A DNA stretch of 64,000 nt, from assembly GCA_003056085.1 (NCBI GenBank), contig LSNK01000001.1, positions 88,729 to 152,728 of the forward strand, read 5' to 3'. Shown piece by piece: positions 22,713 to 47,887 of this stretch. A program made the translations under genes and the position numbers. The stretch comes from Parcubacteria group bacterium M6-OD1-1 (GTDB lineage Bacteria > Patescibacteriota > Minisyncoccia > GWC2-36-17 > M10-OD1-4). The notes below the pieces were generated by a model. That model searched no databases and had not been told where the DNA came from. It saw nothing but the letters and a program-made list of their open reading frames with translations. Each line of letters begins with the position of its first letter. The stretch's first letter is position 1.

Positions 22713-25202
<2,490 letters not shown>

Positions 25203-25206
<4 letters not shown>

Positions 25207-25778
25207 AAATTTAATTTTCTTGGAGAAATGGTTGTTTGAAGATATATTTTATCTCCTGTACTTTGCGATGCATTTTTGGACCCCACATTCATTAATATTG
25301 TTATTTTTGGCTGTCTTGCAGGATTATTAATATCAAAATTTAGAAAAATCACATTTGTATTTTGAATAGAAGTTATAGCCTCTGCATTTGCCGTGCTTCC
25401 AAAATTTCCACCAAAATTATCATCAAATTTTATCTGCCCATTATCTAAAACAAATCTCAAAACTTGGCCAATTCTATTTTCGGAATTGCTTATAAAAGAA
25501 ATATCGGAAGAATTATTTAAAACAAAAGAACTGCCCATCCTTATTTCTCTTGAAATAATTTCCATAGCATACCTTGCGCTGTCAGAAACATTTTGAGTAG
25601 CGATAGCTTTTCTTTGTCCTGAAATAGCATTTAAAAACATATTAGTGTTTATCGCTACAACAATTGCAAAAACCGCTATGGAAACCAAGAGCTCAATTAA
25701 AGTAAAACCGCCGTCAGCTTTAAGCTGTAAGTTGTGAACTTTAGACTTTTTATCAACTTTTGATTTTAAATTTTTCAT
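25203..25778 (-). CDS. Prepilin-type minor pilin, GspJ/PilW-like
   Basis: Class III signal GGFTLIELLVSIAVFAIV plus the ARYAMEIISREIRMG motif characteristic of GspJ. Confidence 0.6.
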
Positions 25779-25813
25779 AAAAGTTTTTTGTAAACCATCA
25801 ACTAAAGATTAAC

Positions 25814-26377
25814 TTACTTCCAATTAAATAGATATCCTTTTACAGAGATATCACAATTAACACCGCAGATTACATCCGACTGAACAGTAATACTGTCTAC
25901 GCTCGTTTTTTGCAAAGTTATAGTTCTTGTAAAGTCTGTGTTTGCAACAGAGCCGGCACCAGCTGTGTTATGAACATAATAACCATCAGAAAGTTTTATG
26001 CTGTAACCGGAACTCAAAGAACTGCAATTAACATCAAAAACAGAATCATTATATTGAATACATCCAACTTTTGACTGTCCGGTGCTCAAATCATCTGTAA
26101 TCCCAAAATCCCATACATTTCCATCAATCCAATTTATATCTCTTATGTTTCTTACAAGCTCAATTCCTTCTTGAGCCAACTGGGCGGCTATCAATCTTTT
26201 TTTTACTTCAGGAGCCAATTTGGTGGAGTTAACAATAGCCCCAACAGATGCCGTAACGCCAACCGTAAGAATAGTCACCGCCACTAAAACTTCTATCAAA
26301 GTAAAACCTTTATTAGTTTTTAGATTACAGGTTTTAGGTTTTAGATTTTTATCTATTTTTGATTTTAAATTTTTCAT
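25814..26377 (-). CDS. Prepilin-type minor pilin, GspI/PilV-like
   Basis: KGFTLIEVLVAVTILTVGV then AAQLAQEGIELVRN. The probable start is the internal MKNLKSKIDK at 26377. Leader and upstream 60 nt are near-identical to those of the 25203 gene. Confidence 0.6.
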   Translation of the reverse strand: MKNLKSKIDKNLKPKTCNLKTNKGFTLIEVLVAVTILTVGVTASVGAIVNSTKLAPEVKKRLIAAQLAQEGIELVRNIRDINWIDGNVWDFGITDDLSTGQSKVGCIQYNDSVFDVNCSSLSSGYSIKLSDGYYVHNTAGAGSVANTDFTRTITLQKTSVDSITVQSDVICGVNCDISVKGYLFNWK

Positions 26378-26405
26378 AAAAGTTTTTTGTAAACTAAAAA
26401 TTAAA

Positions 26406-26981
26406 TTACTGTATTTCAATATTGCCAAATTTATTTATTGTTACCGTTCTTGTATCTGTAATATTTTGCGTAATCCTTAAAACTATATTTTGTGGAAAAT
26501 TATTTGCATTGCCGAAAAAATAAGATATCGGCTCCGGAGGAACAAACGTTACTTCTTTATTTACAGTATCAGCAAATTCAATCCCGGACTCCAAAAAAAC
26601 AGGCTGTGGATCTATCTTTGTAGATTGACCGGAAAATCTTGTAACACCAGCATTGCAGTTGCTTCTGTCATCATAATATAAAAAATAAGATGTAGAGCTT
26701 TCAATTTTAATTCCATAAAAACAAACCGGGTTTGTTCCGTATTTTTTAGGAGACAAAGCTAAATTTTGAACCTTTCTTATATCAAAAGCAAACTTTTGAG
26801 TTGATCTTAAAAGCGCCTGTCTGTCATTTCCAACCTTAATATTTGCCACAGTTACCGCAGACATTATTATTATAATTGACATCGCTACAAGAAGCTCAAG
26901 CAAGGTAAAACCTTCATCAGCTTTAAAGAAAGCCTTGAATTTTAAAAATTTTTTAATATTAAACTTTATTTTTTTATTCAT
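26406..26981 (-). CDS. Prepilin-type minor pilin, GspH/FimT-like
   Basis: EGFTLLELLVAMSIIIIMSAVTVANI N-terminus after a long leader, 191 aa. Confidence 0.6.
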   Translation of the reverse strand: MNKKIKFNIKKFLKFKAFFKADEGFTLLELLVAMSIIIIMSAVTVANIKVGNDRQALLRSTQKFAFDIRKVQNLALSPKKYGTNPVCFYGIKIESSTSYFLYYDDRSNCNAGVTRFSGQSTKIDPQPVFLESGIEFADTVNKEVTFVPPEPISYFFGNANNFPQNIVLRITQNITDTRTVTINKFGNIEIQ

Positions 26982-27011: not shown

Positions 27012-27782
27012 TTAATAAGCTAAATTTAAATACCAGCTTAAAATATCCATTCCAAAAAAGTAGGCTGTTAATGTTCCAACAATCAAAAAGGGTCCAAATG
27101 GAATTTCACTTTTAATGTTTTTTTTCTCAAAAGCCATAAGCATCACTCCTACCAAGGCGCCTACTATATAAGCTATAAAAAGTCCAATTAGAATCTTCGG
27201 CCATCCTAAAAAAAATCCCATAAAAACACCGTATTTTACATCCCCCATTCCTATCCATTTGCCGGATGATACAACATAAAGCAGAAGAAAAAAACCTGAA
27301 GCTAAAAAAGCAGCTAAAATATAAAATAAAATTTCAGAAAAACTGTAAAAATATAAACTATAAAAAAAAGAAATCGTTATTAAAGAATAGACCGCTATAT
27401 TTGGTATTATATAATGCTTAAGATCAAAAACAAATATCAAAATTATAAATGACAATACTGTAAATATATAAACAACATCAATTATTCCTTGAAAAGACAG
27501 CCCTGCCCAGATATATAAAAAAGTGCTCAAAAATAAAAATCCTGTTAAAAGTTCAACCAAAGGATACTGAAATGATATCTTGCCGCCGCAAGACCGGCAT
27601 TTTCTTTTTTGAATAAGAAAACTCAAAACAGGTAAAAGTTCGTACCACTTAAGTATGTGTCCGCATAAAGGACATCGTGACCTCTCTTTCACTAAAGAGC
27701 CCCCGACTTCCAAACGATACAAAGCAGCATTTAAAAAACTGCCTATTATAAGTCCAAATAAAAATATAAAAAATCCAATCAT
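27012..27782 (-). CDS. pilD: Prepilin peptidase (A24 family) with N-terminal Zn-ribbon
   Basis: CPLCGH...CRSCGG zinc-binding N-domain, then a polytopic peptidase A24 body with the conserved Asp pair context. Confidence 0.85.
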   Translation of the reverse strand: MIGFFIFLFGLIIGSFLNAALYRLEVGGSLVKERSRCPLCGHILKWYELLPVLSFLIQKRKCRSCGGKISFQYPLVELLTGFLFLSTFLYIWAGLSFQGIIDVVYIFTVLSFIILIFVFDLKHYIIPNIAVYSLITISFFYSLYFYSFSEILFYILAAFLASGFFLLLYVVSSGKWIGMGDVKYGVFMGFFLGWPKILIGLFIAYIVGALVGVMLMAFEKKNIKSEIPFGPFLIVGTLTAYFFGMDILSWYLNLAY

Positions 27783-27905
27783 AGTTAAGCAATAAGTTAG
27801 AAAGTTGAAAGCAAGCTCTCCACTTTCTTATATGATACCAAAATATAAGACAAATAAAAACAAAGACCTTATAAGGTCTTTGTTTTTATAAAATTTTCTC
27901 AAAAA

Positions 27906-29267
27906 TCACCTATACCAAACCTCCCAATTATAATATCCAAAACTTGAAGACAAATCTCTTTCTTCAACATCCAGTCTGGATATAAGACCGCCATTCCAAT
28001 CAACCCCTTCTGTGTAAGTACAGTATCCCGTACCGCCCTGTTGTATCCACTTTCCGGGATAGGAAGGATCATTTGAAGCTCTCCCTGTATCATCGGAACA
28101 AGTTTTCATAAGAGTTCCATTTATAATTAAACTTATCCTATCATTATTTAACCCAAAACTTCCCGATCCACTACTATTAGTGCCGGAAAAACCTATATCT
28201 GGACACTGAAAAGGAAAAGAGCCTTCTAAAAATTCACTTGCCCCCGAAACAACTTCACCTCCAATACAAAAATCGTCCCATTTATTTGAAGCTTTAAATA
28301 CTATTTCAGACACTGTGCCCAAAGGCCAATTAAAAATTTTACCCTCCACTCTTTGCATAATTTCTCCAGAATCCGTTACCCATGTAATTCCGGAGCTTTG
28401 TAAAGTTATTGTCGCCGTTTGAATCCAATCACTTCCCTTGGCAAGAAGAGTCCACCCTCCTGATGATGCCGCGCTGCCAACATCATCAATTTCGCAAACA
28501 ACTGTACCATCTTGATTTACAACCCTTATGGAAGACCCCGCGGCACAAGTTCCTGAAACTCTTGTTTGTATTGAAGCATTATCAACATCAGCGCTTGTTA
28601 AACTTCCGTCAATAACTTCAATTGTCCCGACGGAGTCAGCGCCTAAAGCCGTGCCTGCATTATCAACTCCATCGGCAAAACCTGCCGGTATTCCTGTAAG
28701 TTCAGACCAATCAACACCATCTTTTACATTTGTTTGAACCGTTGGGTCGGTTTCTGCCGCTGTTCCGGTATCATCAACATTATCGGCAAAGCCTGCCGGT
28801 ATTCCTGTGAGCTCAGACCAATCAACCCCGTCTTTTACATTTGCCTGAACCGTTGGATCGGTTTCTGAAGTAAGTCCGCCTATACACCCTGTAGAATCAC
28901 AAATAGTCCCGCTTGCCGTTACATCTCCGTTGTTTCGTATTGTAAGCCTGTTTTCCAATCCGGTTTGAGTTCGTGCTTGAAATGTTAAATTGTCAGCCAA
29001 GTTGGATACTTGCCAATATTGCGTCCCTCCTTCAGAAAAAAACCTTGCGCCTCGTTCAAGCCACAAATTAGAACCTAAAGTAAGACCTCCTTCTTTCCTT
29101 TGATTTTGGGCTCCAACATTTAAAGGAGCAGGGAGATTATTTTGGGGCGGGCTTGCTGTTATTCCCACCCATTGAGCAGATGTCTCTTTTACAATGGCCG
29201 CTCCCAAAAAGCTTAAAAAAACTAAGGCTACTGCCGTAAAAAATATATTTAAAAACTTTTTACCCAT
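27906..29267 (-). CDS. Large secreted repeat protein embedded in the pilus locus (candidate pilus-associated adhesin)
   Basis: Signal peptide, AQWVGITASPPQNNLPAPLNV...GGLTLG N-module shared with the 2856 protein. The ETDPTVQ.NVKDGVDWSELTGIPAGFADxVD repeat occurs twice (tail-fibre-like), then a Cys-containing C-terminal domain. Confidence 0.6.
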   Translation of the reverse strand: MGKKFLNIFFTAVALVFLSFLGAAIVKETSAQWVGITASPPQNNLPAPLNVGAQNQRKEGGLTLGSNLWLERGARFFSEGGTQYWQVSNLADNLTFQARTQTGLENRLTIRNNGDVTASGTICDSTGCIGGLTSETDPTVQANVKDGVDWSELTGIPAGFADNVDDTGTAAETDPTVQTNVKDGVDWSELTGIPAGFADGVDNAGTALGADSVGTIEVIDGSLTSADVDNASIQTRVSGTCAAGSSIRVVNQDGTVVCEIDDVGSAASSGGWTLLAKGSDWIQTATITLQSSGITWVTDSGEIMQRVEGKIFNWPLGTVSEIVFKASNKWDDFCIGGEVVSGASEFLEGSFPFQCPDIGFSGTNSSGSGSFGLNNDRISLIINGTLMKTCSDDTGRASNDPSYPGKWIQQGGTGYCTYTEGVDWNGGLISRLDVEERDLSSSFGYYNWEVWYR

Positions 29268-29270
29268 TGA

Positions 29271-29298
29271 CTTAATTCTTAATTCTTAATTCTTAATT
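29271..29298. repeat. Perfect heptanucleotide tandem repeat (CTTAATT)x4 starting 4 nt upstream of the start codon of the 27906..29267 gene
   Basis: cttaattcttaattcttaattcttaatt read directly from the sequence. On the mRNA strand it is (AAUUAAG)4-UCA-AUG. Confidence 0.9.
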
Positions 29299-29384
29299 TA
29301 TTATATCATACAAATAAACTATAACAAATAAAAAAACAACCCTTTAAAAAGGGCTGTTTTTTTATTTGTCTTATGAAAACAAAA

Positions 29385-29861
29385 TTAATTTTCTACGCAC
29401 GCAGCGGCAGCTATATTTTTTTCTGAACATCCTGTTGAGTCACAAATAAAAGCATAGCTATTCCTTCCTTCAAGATCAGCACCAACGCAGTAAGTACCAT
29501 CATCACCCTCAGCGGTCAGATTTTTATAAACATATGTATTCCCTGTAGGATCTCCCGGCGATGTTGGTAGAAACGTATTAAAAGCAGGAGATCCATCAGC
29601 GGTATTTATACAACGAGTAGCAGCCCATCCATTTCCAGCCGCACAAGCCTCATCTGTATTCACATAACCAAATGTACCTTGTGAATCCGCAAATAAAACC
29701 TGAGCAGTGTTGATAGCCTGCATATCCGCCTGTCTTTTGGCGTCTCTTGCTTTTACTCTTGCACTGTTTAAAGAAACAAGAACAATAGAAGATAATATTC
29801 CGATAATAGCGATAACAACTAAAAGTTCAATCAGTGTAAAACCTTTTTGATTTTTTTTCAT
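29385..29861 (-). CDS. pilA: Type IV major pilin (PilA-like)
   Basis: MKKNQKGFTLIELLVVIAIIGILSSIVLVSL is the classic type IVa prepilin N-terminus. 158 aa with a C-terminal Cys pair. Confidence 0.85.
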   Translation of the reverse strand: MKKNQKGFTLIELLVVIAIIGILSSIVLVSLNSARVKARDAKRQADMQAINTAQVLFADSQGTFGYVNTDEACAAGNGWAATRCINTADGSPAFNTFLPTSPGDPTGNTYVYKNLTAEGDDGTYCVGADLEGRNSYAFICDSTGCSEKNIAAAACVEN

Positions 29862-30157: not shown

Positions 30158-31363
30158 CTACATAGCTGATGTTATATTATACATCGGCATAAGTATAGCA
30201 ACCAAAAGTATACCCACACCTATCCCAAGCACCAAAATAAGAAGCGGTTCTATTATCGTCACCAAATTATCCATAGTATTTTCAACTTCTTTATGATAAA
30301 AATCAGCAACTGTTTTTAACGTACTATCTAATTTTCCCGCTTGCTCTCCTATCGCTATCATCTGACTCACCATAATGGGAATCTCATTGTGTTTTTTAAA
30401 AATAGAGCTTATAGTCCCTCCTTTTTTGACATTATCAATAGTATCTTCGATTATTTTTCTGTAAGTATAGTTGCCGACAACATTGGCAGAAACCTCAAGA
30501 GATTTCACAATGGGCAAACCTCCTTTAATAAGAGTACTTAAGCTGTCGGAAAATCTGGAAAGATAAAACTTGGTAAGTATAGTCCCAAAAATCGGTATTT
30601 TCAATTGAATTGCGCCCCAAATAACCCTCCCCATTCTTGTTGTTATCCAATGCAGAAAACCAACCACACTGCCTATTAACGCAATTAAGATTAACCACCA
30701 ATAACTTTGAAAAATTTCTGAAATTCCAATTACAATCCTTGTAAGTAACGGCAATTCTATATCTGCCTCTGAAAAAACAGATGTCAAATTTGGAATAACC
30801 CATACCATCATAACAAACATAACGCCAACAAGACCAAAAAGAATAAAGGCTGGATATATCATAGCTCCTCTTACTTTCTGAGTTAAATAATATTCTCTTT
30901 CAATGGTATCTGCCAAATAGTCAAAAACTTCTTCCAAGTTTCCGGAAAGTTCTCCGGAATGAACGATACTTATAAAAAAATCAGAGAAAACTTTTTTATG
31001 ACTGGACAGTGACTTGGAAAGAGAATTCCCGGAATTGACACTTTCGGTAATATCCTCCAGAACCTCTTTAAAAGTAACATTTTTAGTTTGGTCAACCATA
31101 GCCTGGAGAGATTCTATTACAGGAACTTTTGCTTGAAATAAGGCCGATATTTGACGAGAAAAAATAACAATTTCTTTTTGGGGAACATGATCAAAAAACT
31201 TAATCCTTTTATTGGTTAAAGAAATTTTAGATGCTTCACGCACGCTCAAAACTATTAAATTATTTCTTTGCAAAGTTTCAACAGCGGCATCTTGAGTTAA
31301 CGCTTCTACTGTTCCTGTTTTTGTTTCACCTTGCTGTGTTTTTGTTTCGTAGTTAAATAACAT
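30158..31363 (-). CDS. pilC: Type IV pilus platform protein PilC (GspF family)
   Basis: Two GspF repeats, three TM helices, 401 aa. Confidence 0.85.
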   Translation of the reverse strand: MLFNYETKTQQGETKTGTVEALTQDAAVETLQRNNLIVLSVREASKISLTNKRIKFFDHVPQKEIVIFSRQISALFQAKVPVIESLQAMVDQTKNVTFKEVLEDITESVNSGNSLSKSLSSHKKVFSDFFISIVHSGELSGNLEEVFDYLADTIEREYYLTQKVRGAMIYPAFILFGLVGVMFVMMVWVIPNLTSVFSEADIELPLLTRIVIGISEIFQSYWWLILIALIGSVVGFLHWITTRMGRVIWGAIQLKIPIFGTILTKFYLSRFSDSLSTLIKGGLPIVKSLEVSANVVGNYTYRKIIEDTIDNVKKGGTISSIFKKHNEIPIMVSQMIAIGEQAGKLDSTLKTVADFYHKEVENTMDNLVTIIEPLLILVLGIGVGILLVAILMPMYNITSAM

Positions 31364-31430
31364 TTGTTCAAGTTATGGTTATTAGATTATAGTTGTTAAG
31401 AACAATAACCTAATTACTACAACCTATCAT

Positions 31431-32498
31431 CTATTTTATGAGCATCCTAAGCTCCGCAGGATTAAGCGAGTGAATTTCAGCGTCTTCCATAGTTATAAGC
31501 CCCTCTTGAACCAATTTAGAAAGTGATTTATTTAAAGAAACCATTCCCATATCCGAAGAAGTTTCTATAACAAGATCAATTTGATGAGCCTTTCCCTCCC
31601 GAATAAGATTTCTAACTGCCGAATTTGCTATTAAAAGCTCATACGCCGCAACTCTGCCTCCACCTATTTTAGGAATAAGTCTTTTTGAAAGAACTCCGAG
31701 CAAAGTTCCTGCAAGCTGAGCCTTTATTTGGTTTTGCTGCGCCGGTGGGAATGAGTCAATTATCCTGTCTATGGTTTGTGCGGCGTTGTTTGTATGCAAA
31801 GTTGAAAATACTAAATGCCCTGTTTCTGACGCTGTAATTGCCGCAGAAATTGTTTCCGGGTCTCTCATTTCGCCAACCATAATGACATCTGGATCCTGAC
31901 GCAAAATAGAACGCAGAGCTCTCGTAAAGCTCTTTGTGTCATTTCCAACCTCTCTTTGATCAACCACTGACTTTACGTCCTTAAATAAATATTCTATGGG
32001 ATCCTCTATTGTAACTATATGATCTTTTCTTTGTTGATTTATCTCGTCAATCATAGCGGCAAGCGTTGTTGATTTTCCTTGCCCCGAAGGTCCAACCACA
32101 AGAAAAAAACCTTGAGAAGTTTTTAAAAGATCATGTATAATTTCCGGATGCATAAGCTCATCTAATGTTTTTATGGTTTCCGGGATAAGTCTTAGGGCTG
32201 CTGCAAATTTACCTCTTTGAAAAAAAACATTGACACGAAACCTTCCTATGCTGTCTACAGTATAGGAAAAATCTATTTCTTTCTCTTCCAGAAATCTTTT
32301 TTTCTGATCTTGACTTAAAATTAAAGACATAAAATCTTCACCTTTTTCTTTTGTTATAACTCCCGCTTCATCAAAGGTGACCAAAGAGCCGTCTATTCTA
32401 AATTGCGGTTTCCTGCCGACTGACAAATGCAGGTCGGAGGCATTTCTTAAAACAACTTCTTGAAGCAATCTTTCAAATTCTTCTTTCAGGTTATTCAT
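31431..32498 (-). CDS. pilT: Twitching-motility retraction ATPase PilT
   Basis: Walker A GPSGQGKSTT, Asp/His boxes and a PilT-type C-terminus, 355 aa. Confidence 0.85.
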   Translation of the reverse strand: MNNLKEEFERLLQEVVLRNASDLHLSVGRKPQFRIDGSLVTFDEAGVITKEKGEDFMSLILSQDQKKRFLEEKEIDFSYTVDSIGRFRVNVFFQRGKFAAALRLIPETIKTLDELMHPEIIHDLLKTSQGFFLVVGPSGQGKSTTLAAMIDEINQQRKDHIVTIEDPIEYLFKDVKSVVDQREVGNDTKSFTRALRSILRQDPDVIMVGEMRDPETISAAITASETGHLVFSTLHTNNAAQTIDRIIDSFPPAQQNQIKAQLAGTLLGVLSKRLIPKIGGGRVAAYELLIANSAVRNLIREGKAHQIDLVIETSSDMGMVSLNKSLSKLVQEGLITMEDAEIHSLNPAELRMLIK

Positions 32499-32514
32499 AA
32501 ATATTTTTTAAAAA

Positions 32515-32904
32515 TTAATTATTAGCGCAAGAACCTAAAATCTCACTTACTTTTTTAACAACTTCTTTTGGTGTGTAATTTGCCTTAATAAGGTAATCTT
32601 TAGCGCCAAGATTCATAGCTTTATCAATCTCCTCTTTTTGACCCAAGTTAGTCAACATCACTACCGGTATATCTTTATATTCATCTACTTTTTTAATGGC
32701 AGCTAATGTTTCCAATCCATCCATTTTTGGCATAACTATATCCAAAAGCACAATGGCCGGCCTTAATCCTTCAGAAAGCATTCTAATTCCGGTTTCTCCA
32801 TCTTCTGCCATAACAGCATCAAACCCTTCAGAATTAAATTTAGTTTGATACATATCGGACAGAAAATTATCATCTTCAATTATTAAAACTTTCTTATTTT
32901 CCAT
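32515..32904 (-). CDS. CheY-like single-domain response regulator (PilG/PilH-like position)
   Basis: VLIIEDD...DIVMPKMDG...K receiver-domain residues, 129 aa, no output domain. Confidence 0.8.
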   Translation of the reverse strand: MENKKVLIIEDDNFLSDMYQTKFNSEGFDAVMAEDGETGIRMLSEGLRPAIVLLDIVMPKMDGLETLAAIKKVDEYKDIPVVMLTNLGQKEEIDKAMNLGAKDYLIKANYTPKEVVKKVSEILGSCANN

Positions 32905-32934
32905 ATTTTTAAAAATTAAAATAAATTATTAAAA

Positions 32935-34650
32935 CTAAACTGTATCCTGCAAAACATCCTCCAATGATATCATGCCTTTTAAAACTTTAATAATGCCGTC
33001 CTGTCTTAATGAAATCATATTCTGTCTTTTTGCTTCTTCATTTATCTTTTCATCAACCTCGCCATTTATTATTATACTTTTTAATTGCGGTGTCATTTCC
33101 AAAACCTCAAATATAACCATTCTTCCAATAGTCCCTTTATGAGCACACTTTGGACATCCTACAGCCTGAAAAATTTTAAATTCCTGTTTTCTAACTTCAT
33201 CCTGCAAAAACTGGGGCATTTCCGATATATTTTTATCAAGTATTTCTTTTGCTCTTCCTTCCGGTTTGTATTCCGCTTTGCAATCATTGCAAAGTTTTTT
33301 GATAAGCCTTTGGGCTATAATAAGATTTAAAGCCGAAGGAAGCAAAAATGATTCAACCCCCATATCTATAAGACGGGAAACAACCCCGATTGCATCATTT
33401 GTATGCAAAGTTGAAAACACTAAATGACCGGTTAACGCAGCATGCACCACTAAAGTTGCTGTCTCTGAATCTCTAACCTCACCAACCATTATAACATTCG
33501 GATCCTGACGCAAGATACTTCTTAAACCGGAAGCAAATGTATAGTCAATTTCAGGCCTTATCTGAGACTGATTAACTCCATTTACATAATATTCCACAGG
33601 ATCCTCCAAGCTTATTATATTAACTTCCTCATTATTTAAAACTCCCAGCATCGACTGTAAAGTCGTTGATTTACCGGAGCCGGTAGGTCCTGTTGTCAGC
33701 ACCATTCCAAAAGGTTTCTTTAAAGACCTCTCAATGACTTCATAAGAATGCCCGAAAAATCCTAATTCCTCCAAAGTTTTAAGACCGGTTGACGGATCCA
33801 AAAGACGAAGCACAACCTTCTCACCTTCAATGGTAGGAAAAGTTGAAACACGAAAATCTATAGGATTTCCGTCTATTCTTATTCTAAATCTTCCGTCTTG
33901 CGGAACTCTTGTTTCATCTATTTTAAGATTTGATAGAATTTTTATTTTAGAAATTATAGCGCTGTGAGTAGCCTTGGGCAAAGTAAGACTGGCATGAAGC
34001 ACACCGTCTATTCTAAATCTTACTCTTGTGTCATCTTCCATAGGCTCGATATGAATATCTGAAGCTTTTCCTTCATAAGCATGCTTGAAGATAACATCAA
34101 TTAATTTATTTATAGGAGCTTCCTCGGATATTTTTTCCGCTTTTTTTGGATCATCTAATTTAATCTCCACTTCTGATGTTTTTTCTTCAATTCCCTCCAA
34201 AGCCTCTTTAACTTTTGTATCTATGGCGGAATATTGCCTAAACAAAAAATTAAATTGAGAATTTGTTATCAAAAATATCTGTGCATTTAAGTTGTTGCTT
34301 GTCAAAATAAATTTAATAGCGTCTGACGCCTTGATATCCTGCGGATTCACCATTCCAACTTCCAAAAGAGATCCCTTTTTTAAGAGCGGGATTATCTTGT
34401 AAGTCCTTGAGACCTCCTCCGGTATTTGGCTTAAAGCATTCCCCGGAATAGAATAATCTTCTCTTACTTTTTTTAAAGGCACTCCGTAAAACTTGCTTTT
34501 TGCATCAAAAACAACATCTTCAGAAAATTTTTCAAGTAAAAATTCTTCTTCAGTTCCTGAAAATTCTGAAAGCTCTTCTTTAAGACTTACAGCCTCTTCT
34601 TTTGAAATTTTATGCGTTGTAAATAATATATCTATTAAAGTTTTTTGCAT
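32935..34650 (-). CDS. pilB: Type IV pilus assembly ATPase PilB (GspE family)
   Basis: N-terminal GspII domain, Walker A GPTGSGKSTTL and a tetra-Cys Zn motif (CNDC...CPKC), 571 aa. Confidence 0.9.
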   Translation of the reverse strand: MQKTLIDILFTTHKISKEEAVSLKEELSEFSGTEEEFLLEKFSEDVVFDAKSKFYGVPLKKVREDYSIPGNALSQIPEEVSRTYKIIPLLKKGSLLEVGMVNPQDIKASDAIKFILTSNNLNAQIFLITNSQFNFLFRQYSAIDTKVKEALEGIEEKTSEVEIKLDDPKKAEKISEEAPINKLIDVIFKHAYEGKASDIHIEPMEDDTRVRFRIDGVLHASLTLPKATHSAIISKIKILSNLKIDETRVPQDGRFRIRIDGNPIDFRVSTFPTIEGEKVVLRLLDPSTGLKTLEELGFFGHSYEVIERSLKKPFGMVLTTGPTGSGKSTTLQSMLGVLNNEEVNIISLEDPVEYYVNGVNQSQIRPEIDYTFASGLRSILRQDPNVIMVGEVRDSETATLVVHAALTGHLVFSTLHTNDAIGVVSRLIDMGVESFLLPSALNLIIAQRLIKKLCNDCKAEYKPEGRAKEILDKNISEMPQFLQDEVRKQEFKIFQAVGCPKCAHKGTIGRMVIFEVLEMTPQLKSIIINGEVDEKINEEAKRQNMISLRQDGIIKVLKGMISLEDVLQDTV

Positions 34651-34659
34651 AATAAAAAA

Positions 34660-35007
34660 TTAAAATGTTGAAATAAATGGATTTTTTCTCCCAGGTTTTA
34701 TAATAATCTCTCCTGACGATTCATATTTTTTAAGATTTGAATAAAAAGGATTATCTAATTCTTTTTTCATTTTGTCTATATCTCTTTTTATCTTATTGAT
34801 AATTACCGCAGAAGACTCCGAAGAAGTAATAATCTCACCTGAAACAAGTTTTGAAACTCCTGCTTGAGGAGGTGCGGGAACGGTTTTAAAAAAAGCATTA
34901 TAAATAAACATAAACCCGACTAAGGACAGAACCACCAAAACAGCCACAAGTAAATTTTGTCTTGTTCTTCCGTCTTTTGGAAATAAATTTTTAATGGAAA
35001 AATTCAT
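34660..35007 (-). CDS. Small single-TM protein in pilM-N-O block (PilP-like position)
   Basis: 115 aa with one TM helix then a soluble domain. Assigned by position only. Confidence 0.4.
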   Translation of the reverse strand: MNFSIKNLFPKDGRTRQNLLVAVLVVLSLVGFMFIYNAFFKTVPAPPQAGVSKLVSGEIITSSESSAVIINKIKRDIDKMKKELDNPFYSNLKKYESSGEIIIKPGRKNPFISTF

Positions 35008-35015
35008 AAATAAAC

Positions 35016-35564
35016 TTACTGATAATACGCGTTTATGCTAACATCAAAATCAAAAATTGGCTCAATCACCACATCTTCTTCAATAACCTGACTGGATCTT
35101 GATATTGAAAATTTTACGATATCCATAAGGTGTTTATTGTTTTTTATATCTTCACTAAAATTTAAAAATGAGTCATAAGAACCGGAAATTTTTAAATTTG
35201 CCAAAATAATATAATATTCTCCCTTTCTAACTGATTTTTTTATAGGAGTTGAAAAACTAACATCTTTTGCAATAAGTCCATTTCTTGAAATAATATAATC
35301 TATTTCAACAAGAAGATCAGCAATGTTTTTTGATTTTGGCAATATATCGTTTATTCTTTGATTGTTTTTTAAAATTGGGGCAAATTCTTTATTTATATTT
35401 CCAACTTCTTTTATAATATATTGATACCCATCAAGCTCTTGTCCTTTTGCAGTAAGACTTGCCGACACTACTCCTACTTCTCTGTATTTAGGTTCAACAA
35501 AAACAACAGTTAAAATAACGGCGATAGTTAAAAAAATTGTTCCGGTTATATACCTTTTGTCCAT
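35016..35564 (-). CDS. PilO-like pilus assembly protein
   Basis: N-terminal TM helix, a coiled segment and a periplasmic domain, 182 aa, immediately after the PilN-like gene. Confidence 0.5.
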   Translation of the reverse strand: MDKRYITGTIFLTIAVILTVVFVEPKYREVGVVSASLTAKGQELDGYQYIIKEVGNINKEFAPILKNNQRINDILPKSKNIADLLVEIDYIISRNGLIAKDVSFSTPIKKSVRKGEYYIILANLKISGSYDSFLNFSEDIKNNKHLMDIVKFSISRSSQVIEEDVVIEPIFDFDVSINAYYQ

Positions 35565-35637
35565 TTTTATAATTTAAAAATTAACTTATCGTTAATCTTC
35601 TTCTTTTTGCTTTTCATCTTTTATTTTATCTTTAAAT

Positions 35638-36162
35638 CTATTTTTTGATATTTAGCAAAACTGAAAATTTAACACCTTTTTCAACTAAAGAGATGTCTGA
35701 TATTTCGTAACTTGATATATCTTTATTTTTAAAATACAAACTCACCTGTTCAGATAGACTTTTTGGATTCAAAGCAACTCCGATTAATTCCACTTTTCCT
35801 CTCATAACATCAAAGTCAGTATTCTCATAATAAACTCTTGGATGAATTGAACTTGAAATGACAGACAAAAGCTTGTTTGGGTCGGCGTGATTTTTTCTTA
35901 AATTTTCAACCACACTAAGTTGACCCTCCACTTCATTAAGTCTTCCTATCTCACTTGAAGTATTTTCTATATTAAGGTTTTTAATGGATTCGGCCACTTG
36001 GTTTAAGTTTTCAGTCAATATTGAATTGTAGAAAAAAAGACCGATATAAGAACCTGCGCTTATTATTAAAAAAATTATTGAGGTCGTTAAAAAAATCCCT
36101 GAAATTTTACTTTCTTTCGCTTCTATTTCAACATCGCTTTGTAATAGAGAAATATCCGGCAT
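35638..36162 (-). CDS. PilN-like pilus assembly protein
   Basis: Short cytoplasmic N-terminus, a TM helix and a periplasmic domain. Follows pilM. Confidence 0.5.
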   Translation of the reverse strand: MPDISLLQSDVEIEAKESKISGIFLTTSIIFLIISAGSYIGLFFYNSILTENLNQVAESIKNLNIENTSSEIGRLNEVEGQLSVVENLRKNHADPNKLLSVISSSIHPRVYYENTDFDVMRGKVELIGVALNPKSLSEQVSLYFKNKDISSYEISDISLVEKGVKFSVLLNIKK

Positions 36163-36320
36163 AGTTAAAAGTTAAAAATTAAAACCTTATGGTAATTATA
36201 CAATAAAAGTTGAAAATAAAAAAATTTATTTATACTTAATAATTGATGAGTTATAGATTGCAGTAATTTATAAAAAATAGCCTATAAACTAACACCCGCC
36301 TCTAATTCTTCAATAACAAA

Positions 36321-37403
36321 TCAGCGCCGCATAGCAAGTCCAACTGCAACAGAAAAAGACGGACCTATATTCTTTAAAGTTTTCTGAAGCTCTTCTGGAT
36401 AAATTAATCCCGAAAATGGATCAGCAACAGATGCTTTAATCTTTAATTTTTCTTCAAAATACTCAGATAGCCCAAGCATATTGGCAGAGCCTCCGCTTAA
36501 AAAAACCTCGCTAATTCTATGATTGCTTTTATTAAAATAAACATTCATAATTCTTTCTGTTTCCGCTAAAACTCCGTCTATCGTACGAAAAACATCTTTA
36601 GCATCTTCTTTTTGCGCCGGTGTCATCTTCAAACCCATGGCTTTTTTCAGCTCTTCGGCTTTTTTATAATCTCCTTGAGTAATTTTTAAAAATGCTTTTG
36701 TTATGGCAACCCCGGAAATATCATAATTATGAGACAGCCTGACAAATCCGTTATCAACTATACAATAATTGGTGGACTTTGACCCTACATCAATTATTAA
36801 AACCGGACTTTTAATGCCCTTGGCTATGGATCTTGCCATTGGAAATGTTTCCATTTCCAATGCCACAAGATCAACGCCGGACAACATTGATATATTGGAA
36901 TATTTACTTTTTACTTCATTTGGTATAGCAACCAAAAGAACTTGAATTTTATTCACCTTAGACCCTTCTTCTTTTTTTTCTCTTTCTATAATAGTTGAAC
37001 TTAAAGAAACCTGATCCATAGGAACCGGTATATATTGTCTTGCTTGAAATTCTATTGCTTTTTTAAGTTCGTTTTTTGAAAGATCAAGCATCTCTATAAC
37101 TGTAGAAAAACTTGAGAAAACAGGCACACTCATAGCGGTTTTTTTTGCTTCTGCCCCTGATTCTTTTATTATTTTTATAATCAAATCCGCGACTTGATCA
37201 TCAAGCACCCTTAAAGAAGCTTCTTCAAACTCACCTGCATCACCTCTTGAAAAAAGATGTATTTCGCCATAAGTATCAAGTTTGTATTTAGAGCCCTTCC
37301 TTGTTAATTGAACTATTTTTATAGAAGATGTCCCTATGTCCACACCCAAAAATGTGTGTTCTCGAAAAAGCTCAAGAAAGTTTATTTTTTGCGTTAATTT
37401 CAT
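36321..37403 (-). CDS. pilM: Type IV pilus assembly protein PilM (actin-like ATPase)
   Basis: LGVDIGTSSIKIVQL phosphate-1 motif of the actin/FtsA fold, 360 aa. Confidence 0.85.
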   Translation of the reverse strand: MKLTQKINFLELFREHTFLGVDIGTSSIKIVQLTRKGSKYKLDTYGEIHLFSRGDAGEFEEASLRVLDDQVADLIIKIIKESGAEAKKTAMSVPVFSSFSTVIEMLDLSKNELKKAIEFQARQYIPVPMDQVSLSSTIIEREKKEEGSKVNKIQVLLVAIPNEVKSKYSNISMLSGVDLVALEMETFPMARSIAKGIKSPVLIIDVGSKSTNYCIVDNGFVRLSHNYDISGVAITKAFLKITQGDYKKAEELKKAMGLKMTPAQKEDAKDVFRTIDGVLAETERIMNVYFNKSNHRISEVFLSGGSANMLGLSEYFEEKLKIKASVADPFSGLIYPEELQKTLKNIGPSFSVAVGLAMRR

Positions 37404-42678: not shown

Positions 42679-42800
42679 GGAGAGGTGGCTGAGCGGTTGC
42701 TCCCTGTTTGTCCAAGAGCAGTAGCGATTGGCTAACAAACAGCAGTACAGCGAGGCGAAGCCGAGTCGTAAAGGCGATAGTCTTGCTCCCGATTTGTTCA
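42679..42800 (+). pseudogene. Disrupted tRNA-Ser-like copy carrying a 58-nt hairpin insertion in the D-loop
   Basis: GGAGAGGTGGCTGAGCGGT, then the insert 42698..42755 (tgctccctgtttgtccaagagcagtagcgattggctaacaaacagcagtacagcgagg), then CGAAG-ccgagtcgtaa-AGGCGATAGTCTTG-ctcccgatttgttcaaatc. No anticodon or T arm. Confidence 0.5.
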
Positions 42801-42823
42801 AATCATTAATAATTTATAAAGCG

Positions 42824-45916: not shown

Positions 45917-47887
45917 TTATTTATAATAATCTACCCATCCACCTAATAATGTATATCCAGTTCCAACATGAAGTATTAAATAATTACTAGCGGTTGATTT
46001 TACGACTCTAGCTCTATAAATATCGCTGTAAGAAACATCAGTAATGACTTCTTCTTCAGAATTAGCAATATTTAATACTTGTATAGCACTATTTATGATA
46101 CCTCCATTGGCGCCAATATTAAGAAAATTATATCCGTTAACCCAAGTAGAAGATATATACATCCGATAAACTGCACCATACCTACCACCTTGTTGGTCAG
46201 GACTGTAATATGCAATACCATCTGCAGGAACTACATAAGCACCATCCGAAACCCTCTTTAGTCTTCCAGCAAAGCCACCAGAGCTTATGCCATTTCCGTC
46301 AATTCTTGCTATCACAGCATTGTTTGCATAAATATCAAAAATTCCATCTGAAACCCAATTAAAGCCAGTATCACTATCTCCTATCGCTAAGTCAATAGAA
46401 GGAGAAGCGCTAGTCCCAATACCAACATTTCCAATTGAGGTTATTCTTACTCGCTCAACATTATTCGTATAAAATTCAATTTGTCCGTCAGCCGTACTAA
46501 ACATACCTCCGTCTGTATCACCTGGGGAAGTAAAAGAGTATCCACCACCGTTGGAAGGGGTAGCTCCTTTGGCTCTTATTTGCCCGTTTACTTCTAGCTT
46601 TACATTTGGGGCGCTGTTTCCAATGCCGACATTACCAGTGTCTAAAATAGTAAATATATTAGTGCGAGTATAAGATCCGTCATCAGCATTTACTCTTAAC
46701 CCTACATCTGTTTTTTGCCATTCAGCCCAAGTGGATGTTGCAGAATTTTCTTTTAAATAAATTGCGGCCGCTAAACTGCCAGTAACCATAATTTTGGTAT
46801 CACCACCACTTACTTCTAAAAGCTGAGCAGGAGCGTTAGTCCCAATACCAACTTTTGCATTTAAAATATTTACTTCATCAGTTGTTTGGTCGTCAAATTC
46901 AATTCTTCCGGCAGCTGCGCCCAAACCGAGCCAATCACCTGTTGCTGTTGAATCAGCAAAAGCTGCGCCTGTTGTCATAGACCCTACTTTGGTAATATCT
47001 CCAGATCCTACGCTCGTCCATGCAGGATTGGCACCTGCCCCAAGAGTTTTTAGAAGTTGTCCTGATGTTCCCGGAGATAGATTTACCCAATTAGTTCCAT
47101 TAAAATATATAATGTCTCCTTGACTGGCTGTAATACCAGCAATGTCTGTAAGGTAGGCGTTACCGGCTTGCTTAGCATTCCAAGTAGAGGCCGAAGAAAT
47201 ATATGAATCGCCAATAGCGGTGCCATTCCATACGCCCGTTGCAATTGTACCTAATGTGGTAATATTTGATGTTCCCGCCCAAATTGATAAGGCAGTATTT
47301 TCTACATTGCCAAGACTAAGATTAGTTCTAGCCGCTGCGTAGTTAGCAGAACCAAGCAATGTCTGGATATTTGCGGAAGGCGTAATTCCAGCGTAAGTAG
47401 TTAAGTCAGCGTCATATGCTTGAACATTTGTTCCAATAACCAAACCCAAGTTAGTTCTGGCGGTAGAAGTACTGGCTAAATCTGAAAGATTGTTAGTTGA
47501 AAGAAGATCTCCTCCTCCACTACTAATAGTGCCCCACGCAGGATTAACGCCTGCTCCAAGAGTTTTTAGAAATTGCCCTGACGTCCCTGGAGCTATATTT
47601 ACCCAATTAGTTCCATTAAAATATATAATATCTCCTTGACTGGCTGTAATGCTTGAAATATCTGTGAGATAATCATTTCCATTCTGTGGAGTATTTACTG
47701 TACAGTTAGTGTCTCCTGGAGCGCAAGTTGGAGATAGAGTCTCTCCAAGATTATATGACGATCCTGGTGGAGCAGCCAAGGCAGTGTAAATAAAGGTTGA
47801 GAAAGCAATGATAAAAACACCAAGCAAAAACTTACTGCTTGTTTGCAGGACATTTATAACAGTGAGTAATTTGTGTAAATTTCTCAT
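45917..47887 (-). CDS. Large secreted tail-fibre-like repeat protein
   Basis: Signal/TM N-terminus. A 57-aa unit YLTDI(S/A)(S/G)ITASQGDIIYFNGTNWVN(I/L)(A/S)PGTSGQ(F/L)LKTLGAG(V/A)NPAW is duplicated. Ser/Gly/Thr-rich beta-type sequence, 656 aa. Confidence 0.6.
   Translation of the reverse strand: MRNLHKLLTVINVLQTSSKFLLGVFIIAFSTFIYTALAAPPGSSYNLGETLSPTCAPGDTNCTVNTPQNGNDYLTDISSITASQGDIIYFNGTNWVNIAPGTSGQFLKTLGAGVNPAWGTISSGGGDLLSTNNLSDLASTSTARTNLGLVIGTNVQAYDADLTTYAGITPSANIQTLLGSANYAAARTNLSLGNVENTALSIWAGTSNITTLGTIATGVWNGTAIGDSYISSASTWNAKQAGNAYLTDIAGITASQGDIIYFNGTNWVNLSPGTSGQLLKTLGAGANPAWTSVGSGDITKVGSMTTGAAFADSTATGDWLGLGAAAGRIEFDDQTTDEVNILNAKVGIGTNAPAQLLEVSGGDTKIMVTGSLAAAIYLKENSATSTWAEWQKTDVGLRVNADDGSYTRTNIFTILDTGNVGIGNSAPNVKLEVNGQIRAKGATPSNGGGYSFTSPGDTDGGMFSTADGQIEFYTNNVERVRITSIGNVGIGTSASPSIDLAIGDSDTGFNWVSDGIFDIYANNAVIARIDGNGISSGGFAGRLKRVSDGAYVVPADGIAYYSPDQQGGRYGAVYRMYISSTWVNGYNFLNIGANGGIINSAIQVLNIANSEEEVITDVSYSDIYRARVVKSTASNYLILHVGTGYTLLGGWVDYYK

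What the first reader, a model, noticed from the sequence alone, without database searches (positions are those of the whole stretch)
27906..29267. Pilus-locus secreted protein has a distant paralog at 2856..3926 sharing only the N-terminal module; candidate exchangeable tip adhesin
Both proteins begin with a signal peptide followed by AQW(I/V)G...NLPAP(I/L)NV...K.GGLT(I/L)G...WL. After that they diverge into different repeat sets, TLQNNMWCTSNG x3 in one and a tail-fibre-like ETDPTVQ.NVKDGVDWSELTGIPAGFAD x2 in the other, and into different Cys-rich C-termini. A conserved N-terminal anchor with variable distal domains is the architecture of pilus tip adhesins and phage receptor-binding proteins. 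One copy sits between the major pilin and pilD.
Basis: partly seen in the sequence, partly recalled or inferred. Interest (0 to 1): 0.55.

Follow-up and report, generated by a model that had tools for sequence, protein, structure and literature searches.

The report
Tail-fibre-like surface fibre in pilus locus
Two secreted proteins of an ultrasmall (CPR-type) bacterium share a conserved N-terminal base but carry different stalk repeats and tips. They belong to the same kind of tail-fibre-like adhesive fibres that predatory Bdellovibrio uses to recognise prey, and one copy sits in a fast-evolving slot beside the major pilin gene, though nothing shows it is physically part of the pilus.

Summary
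ORF A (27906..29267, minus strand, 453 aa) and ORF B (2856..3926, minus strand, 356 aa) share an N-terminal module. BLASTP gives E=6e-22, and still 2e-18 with the signal peptides removed. After that module they diverge into different repeats and unrelated C-termini. A lies between the major pilin gene and pilD.

Neither protein is a pilin: both have Sec-type leaders with a conserved A|xW cleavage site. The shared module has two parts:
- a roughly 40-aa cap, which is also found at the N-terminus of giant CPR proteins and of genes far from any pilus locus;
- one copy of the fibre unit R.TI..DGNVGIG..P.AKLHV.G. This unit occurs 10-40 times in giant proteins and matches the solved Bdellovibrio MAT fibre Bd2133 (8OND, E=5e-7), which is also the top Foldseek hit for both models.

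The stalk modules are shuffled among relatives. A's 190-aa tip is an orphan with a hypervariable patch.

The pilin-X-pilD placement recurs in seven loci, but all belong to one clade. X always has its own promoter and terminators and is the most divergent gene of the locus. A more distant pilus locus with the same layout has the slot empty.

Best reading: A and B are MAT-like, non-S74 surface adhesin fibres, and A is genomically linked to the pilus. Attachment to the pilus tip remains an untested minority hypothesis.

The parts
27906..29267 (-). ORF A (453 aa): secreted fibre protein in the slot between the major pilin gene and pilD
29178..29267 (-). A aa 1-30: Sec-type signal peptide (MGKK + 22-aa hydrophobic core + TSA|QW). 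It has no G|FTLIE prepilin motif and no lipobox.
   Evidence: Sequence. AF2 predicts a helix at residues 2-30. Ala at -1 and a small or aliphatic residue at -3 are conserved across the family.
28875..29177 (-). A aa 31-131: shared N-module, made of a cap (W.G...PP..N..AP.NV...Q.K.GGLT.G) and the first beta-rich fibre unit
   Evidence: AF2 beta-strands at residues 74-129 with pLDDT about 68-83
28644..28865 (-). A aa 135-208: two 37-aa ETDPTV..VKDGVDWSELTGIPAGFAD repeats. This stalk module is widespread in many phyla, often in proteins that also carry the S74 chaperone, C1q or collagen domains.
   Evidence: D4
28473..28643 (-). A aa 209-265: 'mid' module (..SVGT.EVIDGSLTSADVD..IQTRVSGTCAAGSSIRVVNQDGTVVCE), a disulfide-bracketed knob shared widely, including by a viral contig ORF
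   Evidence: (pLDDT 72-86)
27909..28472 (-). A aa 266-453: orphan C-terminal (tip) domain, shared only with the 77%-identical orthologue P0002
28098..28277 (-). Hypervariable patch within the tip (aa 331-390): 47% aa identity plus indels against the orthologue, dN/dS about 0.5 compared with 0.06-0.14 in the flanking tip segments
29300..29327 (-). Promoter-like site (TTGTTA-16-TATAAT with TG extended -10) directly upstream of A. The same layout is found in orthologous loci.
29271..29298 (-). Exact (AATTAAG)x4 heptamer array in A's 5' leader
   Evidence: about 1.5 copies in L019; absent from L005/6/9/11
29323..29370 (-). Terminator-like hairpin between the pilin gene and A
27854..27889 (-). Terminator-like (bidirectional) hairpin between A and pilD
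2856..3926 (-). ORF B (356 aa): paralogous fibre protein outside the pilus locus, between rpmF and rnhB/dnaE
3456..3839 (-). B aa 30-157: N-module (cap plus a complete fibre unit ending ..GDIIPQAKLHVDGDIRANG)
   Evidence: AF2 strands at residues 79-132 with pLDDT 72-82
3087..3434 (-). B aa 165-280: three E.DP.VG.LQ...WCTSNG....C units plus a degenerate fourth. The number of units varies between strains: P0129 lacks 62 aa.
   Evidence: D1
2859..3086 (-). B aa 281-356: small C-terminal domain (..CPSGYKVISGGY....AVCART), with clustered substitutions relative to orthologue P0129
29385..29861 (-). Major prepilin gene (158 aa)
27012..27782 (-). Prepilin peptidase PilD
24796..26981 (-). Three minor prepilins (N_methyl) plus a 136-aa PilX-like protein
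30158..37403 (-). Rest of the T4P gene set: pilC, pilT, response regulator, pilB, a 115-aa ORF, pilO, a 174-aa ORF, pilM
45917..47887 (-). Third, more distant fibre-family protein (656 aa). It has three GNVGIGT..P..KLEV.G units and TARTNLGL motifs but no cap.
   Evidence: D9; hmmsearch E=1.1e-6

Best explanation
A and B are two members of a family of secreted, tail-fibre-like surface fibres in a CPR/Patescibacteria-type bacterium. They are most probably trimeric. The closest characterised relatives are the non-S74 'mosaic adhesive trimer' (MAT) fibres of Bdellovibrio.

Proposed mechanism:
1. Each protein is exported by Sec and probably cleaved by signal peptidase I at the conserved A|(Q/A)W site (inferred).
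2. The conserved N-module (cap plus first fibre unit) forms the cell-proximal base. It nucleates the fibre and holds it on the cell envelope. The partner is unknown (inferred).
3. Interchangeable stalk modules project a lineage-specific C-terminal domain. These modules are the ETDP..KDG..W.E..IPAGFADG repeats, the E.DP.VG.L...WC..NG...C repeats and the Q.RVSGTC...DGTV.C knob.
4. The C-terminal domain binds a ligand on the host cell or another surface (inferred).

A occupies a clade-specific, independently transcribed, rapidly diversifying slot between the major pilin gene and pilD. The pilus and the fibre are therefore likely used together: the pilus gives long-range tethering and retraction, and the fibre gives close-range specific adhesion. 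The fibre is not a pilin, and the N-module is a family-wide base rather than a pilus-specific adaptor.
For: **Shown**
- The shared module is significant without the signal peptide.
- An exhaustive profile search shows that module positions about 40-113 are a unit repeated 10-40 times in 1000-7900-aa proteins. One of these is from Candidatus Roizmanbacteria.
- The cap heads both small and giant proteins.
- The same profile hits the solved MAT fibres: Bd2133 8OND at E=5.1e-7, Bd2439 8OL4/8ONF at 0.0066 and Bd1334 8OML at 0.014.
- 8OND is the top Foldseek hit for both independent models, followed by the T4 gp34 tail fibre.
- A's stalk repeats co-occur in other proteins with Peptidase_S74, C1q, collagen and Gly_rich_2 tips.
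- Modules are shuffled among positional orthologues. P0003/7/9/13/111 differ in module order and length, from 288 to 453 aa.
- MAT proteins are defined as a signal peptide, a conserved beta-rich N-domain of about 130 aa, a trimeric fibre and a variable tip, with or without S74 (PMC10769870).
- The slot gene is the most divergent in the locus. It shows 31-44% identity over the N-terminal part only, against 68-81% for PilB/T/C and 73% for LigA.
- The tip has a hypervariable patch.
- B's orthologue has a different repeat number.
- GC3 is host-like, so neither gene is a recent foreign insert.
- X has its own promoter and terminators in all loci examined.
- A third fibre-unit protein lies in the same window.

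**Literature frame**
- In Saccharibacteria, T4P tether the cell to the host and 'additional close-proximity adhesins' are postulated (PMC12206443).
Against: - Both monomer AF2 models are poor (mean pLDDT 57.8 and 52.1). The Foldseek hits are weak (E 0.05-0.09) and cover only 80-110 residues.
- The PDB sequence match concerns a single fibre unit of about 55 aa.
- Trimerisation, surface location, signal-peptide cleavage and ligand binding were not tested.
- Homology of the cap to the Bdellovibrio MAT N-domain could not be tested. No Bd N-domain sequence or model was reachable, and afdb50 was unavailable.
- A's tip has no homologue or fold assignment, so 'adhesin' rests on architecture and evolutionary rate alone.
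- Repeated placement next to the pilin in seven loci is also what a pilus-associated protein would show.
Confidence: 0.6

Rival explanations
1. One reading: A is a non-pilin adhesin at the pilus tip (or along the pilus), analogous to PilY1. Its conserved N-module docks onto the minor-pilin priming complex. Paralogues with the same N-module (B and others) would be alternative tips that can be exchanged on the same pilus.
For: - A gene with this N-module lies immediately after the major pilin gene in seven loci. One of these (L009) has a different downstream neighbourhood.
- It evolves as fast as, or faster than, the minor pilins.
- The mature N-terminus starts at an invariant Trp, and about 20 positions are invariant across paralogues. 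This could reflect a conserved binding partner.
- There is a precedent for a T4P adhesin with a non-canonical signal peptide in CPR, PilX2 of TM7x (PMC12206443).
- The MAT authors themselves raise possible interplay with T4P (PMC10769870).
Against: - There is no prepilin motif.
- The gene is not in the minor-pilin operon and has its own promoter and terminators.
- All seven loci come from one clade (PilC at least 68% identical), so the synteny is not independent evidence.
- L017, with the same pilin, pilD and four-minor-pilin layout, has the slot empty.
- The cap or N-module occurs in at least nine non-pilus loci and on 1000-3500-aa proteins.
- A and B N-modules are no closer to each other than to orthologues elsewhere.
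- No PilY1/PilC domain is detected.
Confidence: 0.17
2. A and B are structural cell-envelope or S-layer-associated fibres. They could act as spacers, glycocalyx-like filaments or cell-cell cohesion fibres. They have no specific host-recognition role, and the position beside the pilin gene is incidental.
For: - The family is very large: 14,326 representatives at E<=1e-3. It includes giant multi-repeat proteins in many lineages.
- Most members sit among housekeeping genes.
- There is no recognisable lectin or adhesin domain in A or B.
Against: - Tip domains are swapped among positional orthologues, and a hypervariable patch is confined to the tip while the base and stalk are under strong purifying selection (dN/dS 0.07-0.11).
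- Repeat number varies between strains.
- The closest characterised relatives are prey-recognition fibres.
Confidence: 0.15
3. A is a phage-derived receptor-binding protein, from a prophage remnant or a tailocin fibre, inserted into the pilus locus.
For: - Foldseek lists the T4 gp34 tail fibre among the top hits.
- The stalk repeats co-occur with the phage-type S74 chaperone in other proteins.
- The mid module occurs in tandem in a 1086-aa ORF of an IMG/VR contig.
Against: - No phage genes flank A or B.
- GC3 equals that of host genes.
- There is no PHROG hit and no tblastn hit in 50,697 phage records.
- The protein has a Sec signal peptide.
- Vertical synteny runs across a clade.
Confidence: 0.03

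Closest known systems
Bdellovibrio bacteriovorus MAT (mosaic adhesive trimer) fibres, non-S74 subgroup (Caulton et al. 2024, PMC10769870; PDB 8OND, 8OL4/8ONF, 8OML)
   Same: - Both have a signal peptide, then a conserved beta-rich N-terminal domain of about 100-130 aa, then a repetitive fibre, then a variable C-terminal tip.
- There are several paralogues per genome.
- The fibre unit (R.TI...GNVGIG..P.AKL.V.G) is similar at sequence level, and MAT fibres are the top structural hits.
- The organism depends on attaching to other bacteria.
   Different: - The host is a CPR-type, probably monoderm, bacterium rather than a diderm predator.
- A and B are much shorter (356-453 aa against roughly 1000 aa), with only one canonical fibre unit.
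- Their stalks use ETDP/KDG-W and E.DP.VG..WC..C repeats and a disulfide knob, none of which were matched to MAT structures.
- Homology of the N-terminal cap to the MAT N-domain is untested.
- One copy is embedded in a T4P locus.
Phage tail fibres / receptor-binding proteins (T4 gp34; S74-chaperone tail fibres and endosialidases)
   Same: - The logic is modular: a conserved proximal part and an exchangeable distal receptor-binding part.
- There is weak fold similarity to gp34.
- The stalk repeats co-occur with Peptidase_S74 in relatives.
   Different: - A and B have no S74 domain.
- They are Sec-secreted cellular proteins.
- There are no sequence hits in phage databases and no phage context.
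Non-pilin T4P tip adhesins (PilY1/PilC of Pseudomonas/Neisseria) and CPR PilX2 (TM7x)
   Same: - The gene is encoded in a T4P locus.
- The protein has a Sec-type or non-canonical leader.
- It is a large, variable extracellular protein proposed to mediate adhesion.
   Different: - There is no PilY1/PilC beta-propeller domain.
- It is not in the minor-pilin operon.
- PilX2 is a minor pilin with a pilin-like N-terminus, whereas A is not.
- The N-module is widespread outside pilus loci.
R64 shufflon PilV (thin-pilus tip adhesin with switchable C-termini; Pfam Shufflon_N PF04917)
   Same: - The concept is the same: a constant N-part with alternative C-terminal specificity segments.
- In some hits (P0010, P0025) the same ETDP repeats are followed by a segment matching the last 46 residues of Shufflon_N.
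   Different: - A and B themselves do not match PF04917.
- There is no recombinase, no sfx-type inverted repeats and no silent cassettes in the window.
- PilV is a true prepilin.

Membership tests
MAT / tail-fibre-like trimeric fibre superfamily | N-terminal signal peptide | tested here: met
   The leader has a basic n-region, a hydrophobic core of about 22 aa, Ala at -1 and a small or aliphatic residue at -3. This pattern is conserved in all family members examined. AF2 predicts a helix at residues 2-30. SignalP was not available.
MAT / tail-fibre-like trimeric fibre superfamily | Conserved beta-rich domain of about 130 aa directly after the signal peptide | tested here: inconclusive
   A conserved module of 100-128 aa, predicted to be beta-rich, is present. 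Its homology to the Bdellovibrio N-domain could not be tested: no Bd N-domain is in the PDB, and afdb50 was unavailable.
MAT / tail-fibre-like trimeric fibre superfamily | Fibre repeats homologous to MAT beta-prism/beta-helix units | tested here: met
   - N-module profile against the PDB: Bd2133 8OND E=5.1e-7 (3 stretches), 8OL4/8ONF 0.0066, 8OML 0.014.
- Foldseek top hit is 8OND for both models (probability 0.96-0.99, E 0.05-0.09).
- Only one canonical unit is present per protein.
MAT / tail-fibre-like trimeric fibre superfamily | Homotrimeric assembly | not testable with these tools
   Only monomer AF2 was available. The poor monomer confidence is compatible with an obligate oligomer but does not prove one.
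MAT / tail-fibre-like trimeric fibre superfamily | Variable C-terminal tip, with or without the S74 chaperone-protease | tested here: met
   The tips of A, B and the positional orthologues are unrelated. A and B have no PF13884, so they are of the non-S74 type. S74 is present in relatives that share A's repeats.
MAT / tail-fibre-like trimeric fibre superfamily | Display on the cell surface and binding of target-cell ligands | not testable with these tools
   This needs experiment.
Type IV pilin / minor pilin | Class III (prepilin) signal: short leader, G|(F/M)xxxE, N_methyl motif | tested here: not met
   A and B have no PF07963/TIGR02532 hit, while the five neighbouring pilins score. Their leaders lack a Gly at -1 and a Glu at +5.
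PilY1/PilC-type non-pilin tip adhesin | C-terminal PilY1/PilC beta-propeller domain, and a gene inside the minor-pilin operon | tested here: not met
   There are no Pfam or NCBIfam hits. A is flanked by terminator hairpins and has its own promoter-like site.
Shufflon / cassette-switching adhesin | Site-specific recombinase, inverted recombination sites and alternative C-terminal segments in cis | tested here: not met
   The repeat finder shows only intragenic tandem units. There are no inverted cassettes or silent copies. A and B do not match PF04917.
DGR variable protein | Template/variable repeat pair (about 100 bp, A-specific mismatches) and a nearby reverse transcriptase | tested here: not met
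   No repeat pair involves the 3' parts of A or B. Not every ORF of the window was scanned for a reverse transcriptase.
Phage tail fibre (prophage gene) | Phage gene neighbourhood and sequence relatives in phage genomes | tested here: not met
   housekeeping and T4P neighbours; no PHROG hit; no phage tblastn hit; host-like GC3

The most novel reading that the evidence does not exclude
In this Parcubacteria-like clade the T4P locus has captured a MAT-type host-recognition fibre. The fibre's conserved N-terminal cap docks on the pilus, at the tip complex or along the shaft. Fibres encoded elsewhere with the same cap (B and relatives) could then be loaded alternatively. This would give an ultrasmall episymbiont a modular, rapidly evolving host-range determinant carried on a retractile filament. 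It would be a pilus-adhesin coupling different from PilY1, modular pilins or shufflons, and a concrete example of the MAT-T4P interplay speculated for Bdellovibrio.
Probability: 0.15. Interest if true: 0.75.

Novelty: new variant of a known kind. Interest (0 to 1): 0.47.

Why it matters
How CPR/Patescibacteria recognise and hold their host cells is largely unknown outside a few Saccharibacteria. There, pili tether the cell and other, unidentified adhesins are postulated.

This locus points to candidates for those adhesins: MAT-like, tail-fibre-type fibres with swappable tips.
- The family is very large in CPR, yet has no Pfam or NCBIfam model for its N-terminal cap.
- One member is fixed in a hypervariable, separately transcribed slot beside the major pilin gene.

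This links the fibre system that Bdellovibrio uses to recognise prey with a second, unrelated lineage that lives on other bacteria.

It also yields testable predictions:
- the tip domain should determine host specificity;
- the N-module should determine where the fibre is anchored.

If the N-module were shown to dock on the pilus, that would be a new way of arming a type IV pilus.

Tried and rejected
- **Family libraries.** Pfam, NCBIfam, PHROGs and PDB sequence searches with full-length A and B gave nothing.
- **A's tip domain.** A homology search with A's C-terminal 189 aa gave no hit at E<=0.1. The tip remains an orphan.
- **AF2 of A and B with family alignments.**
  - Mean pLDDT was 57.8 and 52.1. 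The tips, B's repeats and most of A's stalk are unusable.
  - I therefore drew no fold conclusion for the tips and treat the Foldseek hits as supportive only.
  - afdb50 was not available, so the Bdellovibrio N-domain could not be compared.
- **Designed 'Bagel' beta-propellers.** These appeared in the PDB profile search as sums of individually insignificant repeats. Rejected as spurious.
- **GTDB scan with the N-module.** It returned only one Azambacteria MAG (three loci) and one weak hit. The pattern used was too specific to measure distribution.
- **Metagenome scan with PilC.** It returned only five loci. That was enough to find an empty slot (L017) but not enough for statistics.
- **Viral scan with alignment A3.** It failed because no stretch was conserved enough.
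- **Foreign origin of A.** The raised GC (42% against 33.5%) comes from codon positions 1 and 2. GC3 is host-like.
- **Similar hairpins flanking A (I2).** Considered as insertion scars. Rejected, because every orthologous locus has its own unrelated terminator sequences.
- **Homology between A-type and B-type repeats.** Only the 7-residue lead-in aligns.
- **Positive selection.** No region has dN/dS above 1. dS is near saturation at about 1, so the test is weak.
Full report
**1. Observation.**
The window has 33.5% GC. It carries a complete type IV pilus (T4P) gene set, all on the minus strand:
- pilM (36321-37403), a 174-aa ORF, pilO, a 115-aa ORF and pilB (32935-34650);
- a response regulator, pilT and pilC;
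- a 158-aa prepilin (29385-29861);
- ORF A (27906-29267, 453 aa);
- pilD (27012-27782);
- three N_methyl minor pilins, a PilX-like 136-aa protein, and then ligA.

ORF B (2856-3926, 356 aa) lies 24 kb away, between rpmF and rnhB/dnaE.

A and B align at E=6e-22. With the leaders removed they still align at E=2e-18, 34% identity. No third copy of the full module exists in the six-frame translation.

A carries two 37-aa ETDPTVQ.NVKDGVDWSELTGIPAGFAD repeats. B carries three E.DP.VG.LQ...WCTSNG....C units plus a degenerate fourth. The two repeat types share only the lead-in E.DP.V.. The C-termini are unrelated.

**2. Anatomy of A.**
Mapping the 120 best database hits onto A shows four independent modules.
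- **N-module (aa 31-131).** It is shared only with a small set of 176-480-aa proteins: P0002, 3, 6, 7, 9, 13, 17, 71, 83, 111, 121 and B.
- **ETDP repeats.** They are shared with hundreds of proteins from many phyla. Those proteins end in Peptidase_S74 (the tail-fibre chaperone), C1q, collagen, Gly_rich_2 and other tips.
- **Disulfide-bracketed 'mid' knob (IQ.RVSGTC..G..I......DGTV.C).** It is also widespread, and it occurs in tandem in a 1086-aa ORF of an IMG/VR contig.
- **190-aa C-terminal domain.** It is found only in the 77%-identical orthologue P0002. A dedicated search found nothing else.

Relatives mix these modules freely:
- P0017, P0071 and P0111 combine B-type repeats with A-type modules.
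- The positional orthologues P0003/7/9/13 carry the knob before the ETDP repeat and end in a different, roughly 70-aa Cys-containing domain.

The raised GC of A and B comes from codon positions 1 and 2. GC3 (0.28 and 0.25) matches host genes, so there is no sign of recent import.

**3. What the shared N-module is.**
A 9-sequence profile of the module (A2) was searched exhaustively against 1.84 billion representatives. It found 14,326 proteins at E<=1e-3.
- Full-length matches are confined to small proteins.
- Profile positions about 40-113 are a unit that recurs 10-40 times in proteins of 1000-7900 aa. One of these is annotated Candidatus Roizmanbacteria.
- The first roughly 40 positions form the 'cap' (A|xW.GP...PP..N..AP(I/L)NV...Q.K.G.L). 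The cap also sits directly after the leader of 680-3500-aa proteins.

The same profile hits solved Bdellovibrio MAT fibres through the unit R.TI...GNVGIG..P.AKL.V.G:
- Bd2133, 8OND: E=5.1e-7;
- Bd2439, 8OL4/8ONF: E=0.0066;
- Bd1334, 8OML: E=0.014.

AF2 monomer models of A and B are poor overall (pLDDT 57.8 and 52.1). They predict a moderately confident beta-meander for this unit. For both models the best Foldseek PDB hit is 8OND (probability 0.96-0.99, E 0.05-0.09). T4 gp34 and other MATs follow. These structural hits are weak and I use them only as corroboration.

MATs are defined as a signal peptide, a conserved beta-rich N-domain of about 130 aa, an intertwined trimeric fibre and a variable tip, with or without S74. 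They are displayed on the predator surface and bind prey glycans (PMC10769870). A and B fit this architecture as short, non-S74 members. Whether their cap is homologous to the MAT N-domain could not be tested.

The leaders are not prepilin leaders. They have a basic n-region and a hydrophobic core of about 22 aa. Ala at -1 is invariant and the residue at -3 is small or aliphatic, immediately before the invariant Trp. This suggests signal peptidase I cleavage, but that is an inference.

**4. The link with the pilus.**
A gene with this N-module lies directly after the major pilin gene in L005, L006, L007, L011/L012, L019/L020 and L009, besides the window. In L009 two further genes separate it from pilD.

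In every locus examined, the pilin gene is followed by a terminator hairpin. An extended -10 promoter-like site and a leader of about 35 nt then precede X, and a hairpin follows X wherever the downstream flank was read. X is therefore a separate transcription unit.

Against these relatives, identities are as follows:

| Gene | Identity |
|---|---|
| PilB/T/C | 68-81% |
| LigA | 73% |
| PilD | 62-66% |
| Major pilin | 52-71% |
| Minor pilins | 42-60% |
| X | 31-44%, over the N-terminal 116-270 aa only |

Against the closest orthologue, dN/dS by region is as follows (dS is about 1, so the estimates are rough):

| Region | dN/dS |
|---|---|
| N-module and stalk | 0.07-0.11 |
| Tip overall | 0.18 |
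| Tip patch aa 331-390 (47% identity, indels) | about 0.5 |

Four points argue against X being a structural part of the pilus:
- All occupied loci belong to one clade, and the whole region through ligA/gatC is syntenic.
- A more distant locus (L017, PilC 55% identical) has the same pilin, pilD, minor-pilin and PilX-like layout. There, only a single terminator lies between the pilin gene and pilD.
- Nine other cap or N-module genes have no pilus genes nearby: B, L001-L003 of an Azambacteria MAG, L008, L010 and L021-L023.
- The N-modules of A and B are 39% identical. That is no closer than either is to the slot genes of other genomes (41-46%).

No cassette, shufflon or DGR-type repeat is present.

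The window also holds a third, cap-less fibre protein (45917-47887). It has three GNVGIGT units and TARTNLGL motifs.

**5. Interpretation.**
The best-supported reading (confidence about 0.6) is that A and B are MAT-like, tail-fibre-type surface fibres.
- The shared N-module is the family's generic cell-proximal base.
- The stalk is built from shuffled modules.
- The C-terminal domain is the specificity-determining tip.

A occupies a clade-specific, independently expressed, fast-evolving slot in the T4P locus. This is consistent with the fibre and the pilus being used together in attachment. The proposed division of labour in Saccharibacteria between pilus tethering and 'close-proximity adhesins' is a parallel (PMC12206443).

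A purely structural envelope fibre (about 0.15) and a phage remnant (about 0.03) are less likely.

**6. Novelty.**
The kind is known: MAT and tail-fibre-like adhesive fibres, and the widely annotated 'tail fiber domain-containing' proteins. Three things are not described in the literature I could search. Six papers mention MAT, and by their titles none concerns CPR. No paper combines Patescibacteria, type IV pili and tail fiber.
- The cap-plus-unit base module is very common in CPR but has no model in Pfam or NCBIfam.
- The short disulfide-rich stalk variants.
- The embedding of one member in a hypervariable slot next to the major pilin gene.

I rate this a new variant of a known kind, of moderate interest.

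Noticed in passing
window 29271-29298 (minus strand: AATTAAG x4), between the promoter-like -10 box and A's start codon: There is an exact heptanucleotide tandem array in A's 5' leader. The closest orthologous locus (L019) has only about 1.5 copies, and more distant loci have none. This could be a contingency repeat that modulates expression of the fibre.
   Followed up: partly
window 45917-47887 (-) and 44040-45581 (-): A third fibre-type protein (656 aa) has a signal anchor, duplicated YLTDI..ITASQGDIIYFNGTNWVN modules, tail-fibre-like TARTNLGL motifs and three GNVGIGT units. Next to it is a 513-aa secreted protein with W.EN.GWINF repeats and two PG_binding_1 domains. Together with A and B this suggests a multi-member fibre repertoire.
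   Followed up: partly
L009 6875-9147: In this relative the pilin-pilD slot holds three genes: the fibre gene, a 235-aa Cys-rich membrane-anchored protein and a 522-aa secreted protein with no Pfam match. The start of pilD follows. The slot behaves as a cargo site.
   Followed up: partly
P0129 vs window 2856-3926 (ORF B): A near-identical orthologue of B lacks 62 aa (two repeat units). Its substitutions cluster in one stretch of the C-terminal domain (YNMVAGGDVNYVWMKFN vs HEMAPQGDVDYVWMIRS). This indicates repeat-number variation and local tip diversification between strains.
   Followed up: partly
P0010 aa 198-243, P0025 aa 340-385 (hits): In proteins that carry the same ETDP repeats, the segment before the tip matches the last 46 positions of Pfam Shufflon_N, the constant region of the R64 PilV thin-pilus adhesin. 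The scores are just above the gathering threshold. This hints that the junction module before a variable tip is shared between these fibres and a true pilus-tip adhesin.
   Followed up: no
L018 3527-6787 (IMG/VR UViG_3300028840_003901): A 1086-aa ORF on a viral contig contains tandem copies of the 'mid' knob (Q.RV.GTC...DG.V.C with the ..QIIDGS.T..D.DS.. linker). The nature of the virus is unknown.
   Followed up: no
L001-L003 (Candidatus Azambacteria MAG JALTWS01): One MAG carries three N-module genes, and two of them are cut by contig ends. Mosaic fibre genes seem to break assemblies, so their copy number in MAGs is probably underestimated.
   Followed up: no
window 32515-32904 (-) and the same position in L005, L006, L009, L011: A stand-alone response-regulator receiver gene is conserved between pilB and pilT in all loci of this clade.
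   Followed up: no
window 42681-43493 (+): Duplicated segments surround the tRNA-Ser(tga), tRNA-Lys and tRNA-Ser(gct) genes. They comprise 75-nt and 57-nt upstream repeats at 91-96% identity, plus an extra copy of the tRNA-Ser 3' half at 42955-43010 that ARAGORN does not call as a gene.
   Followed up: partly
window 27845-27890 and 29329-29374: The two terminator hairpins flanking A resemble each other (76% over 46 nt). Other loci have unrelated terminators, so this is probably convergence of A/T-flanked hairpins rather than an insertion scar.
   Followed up: yes
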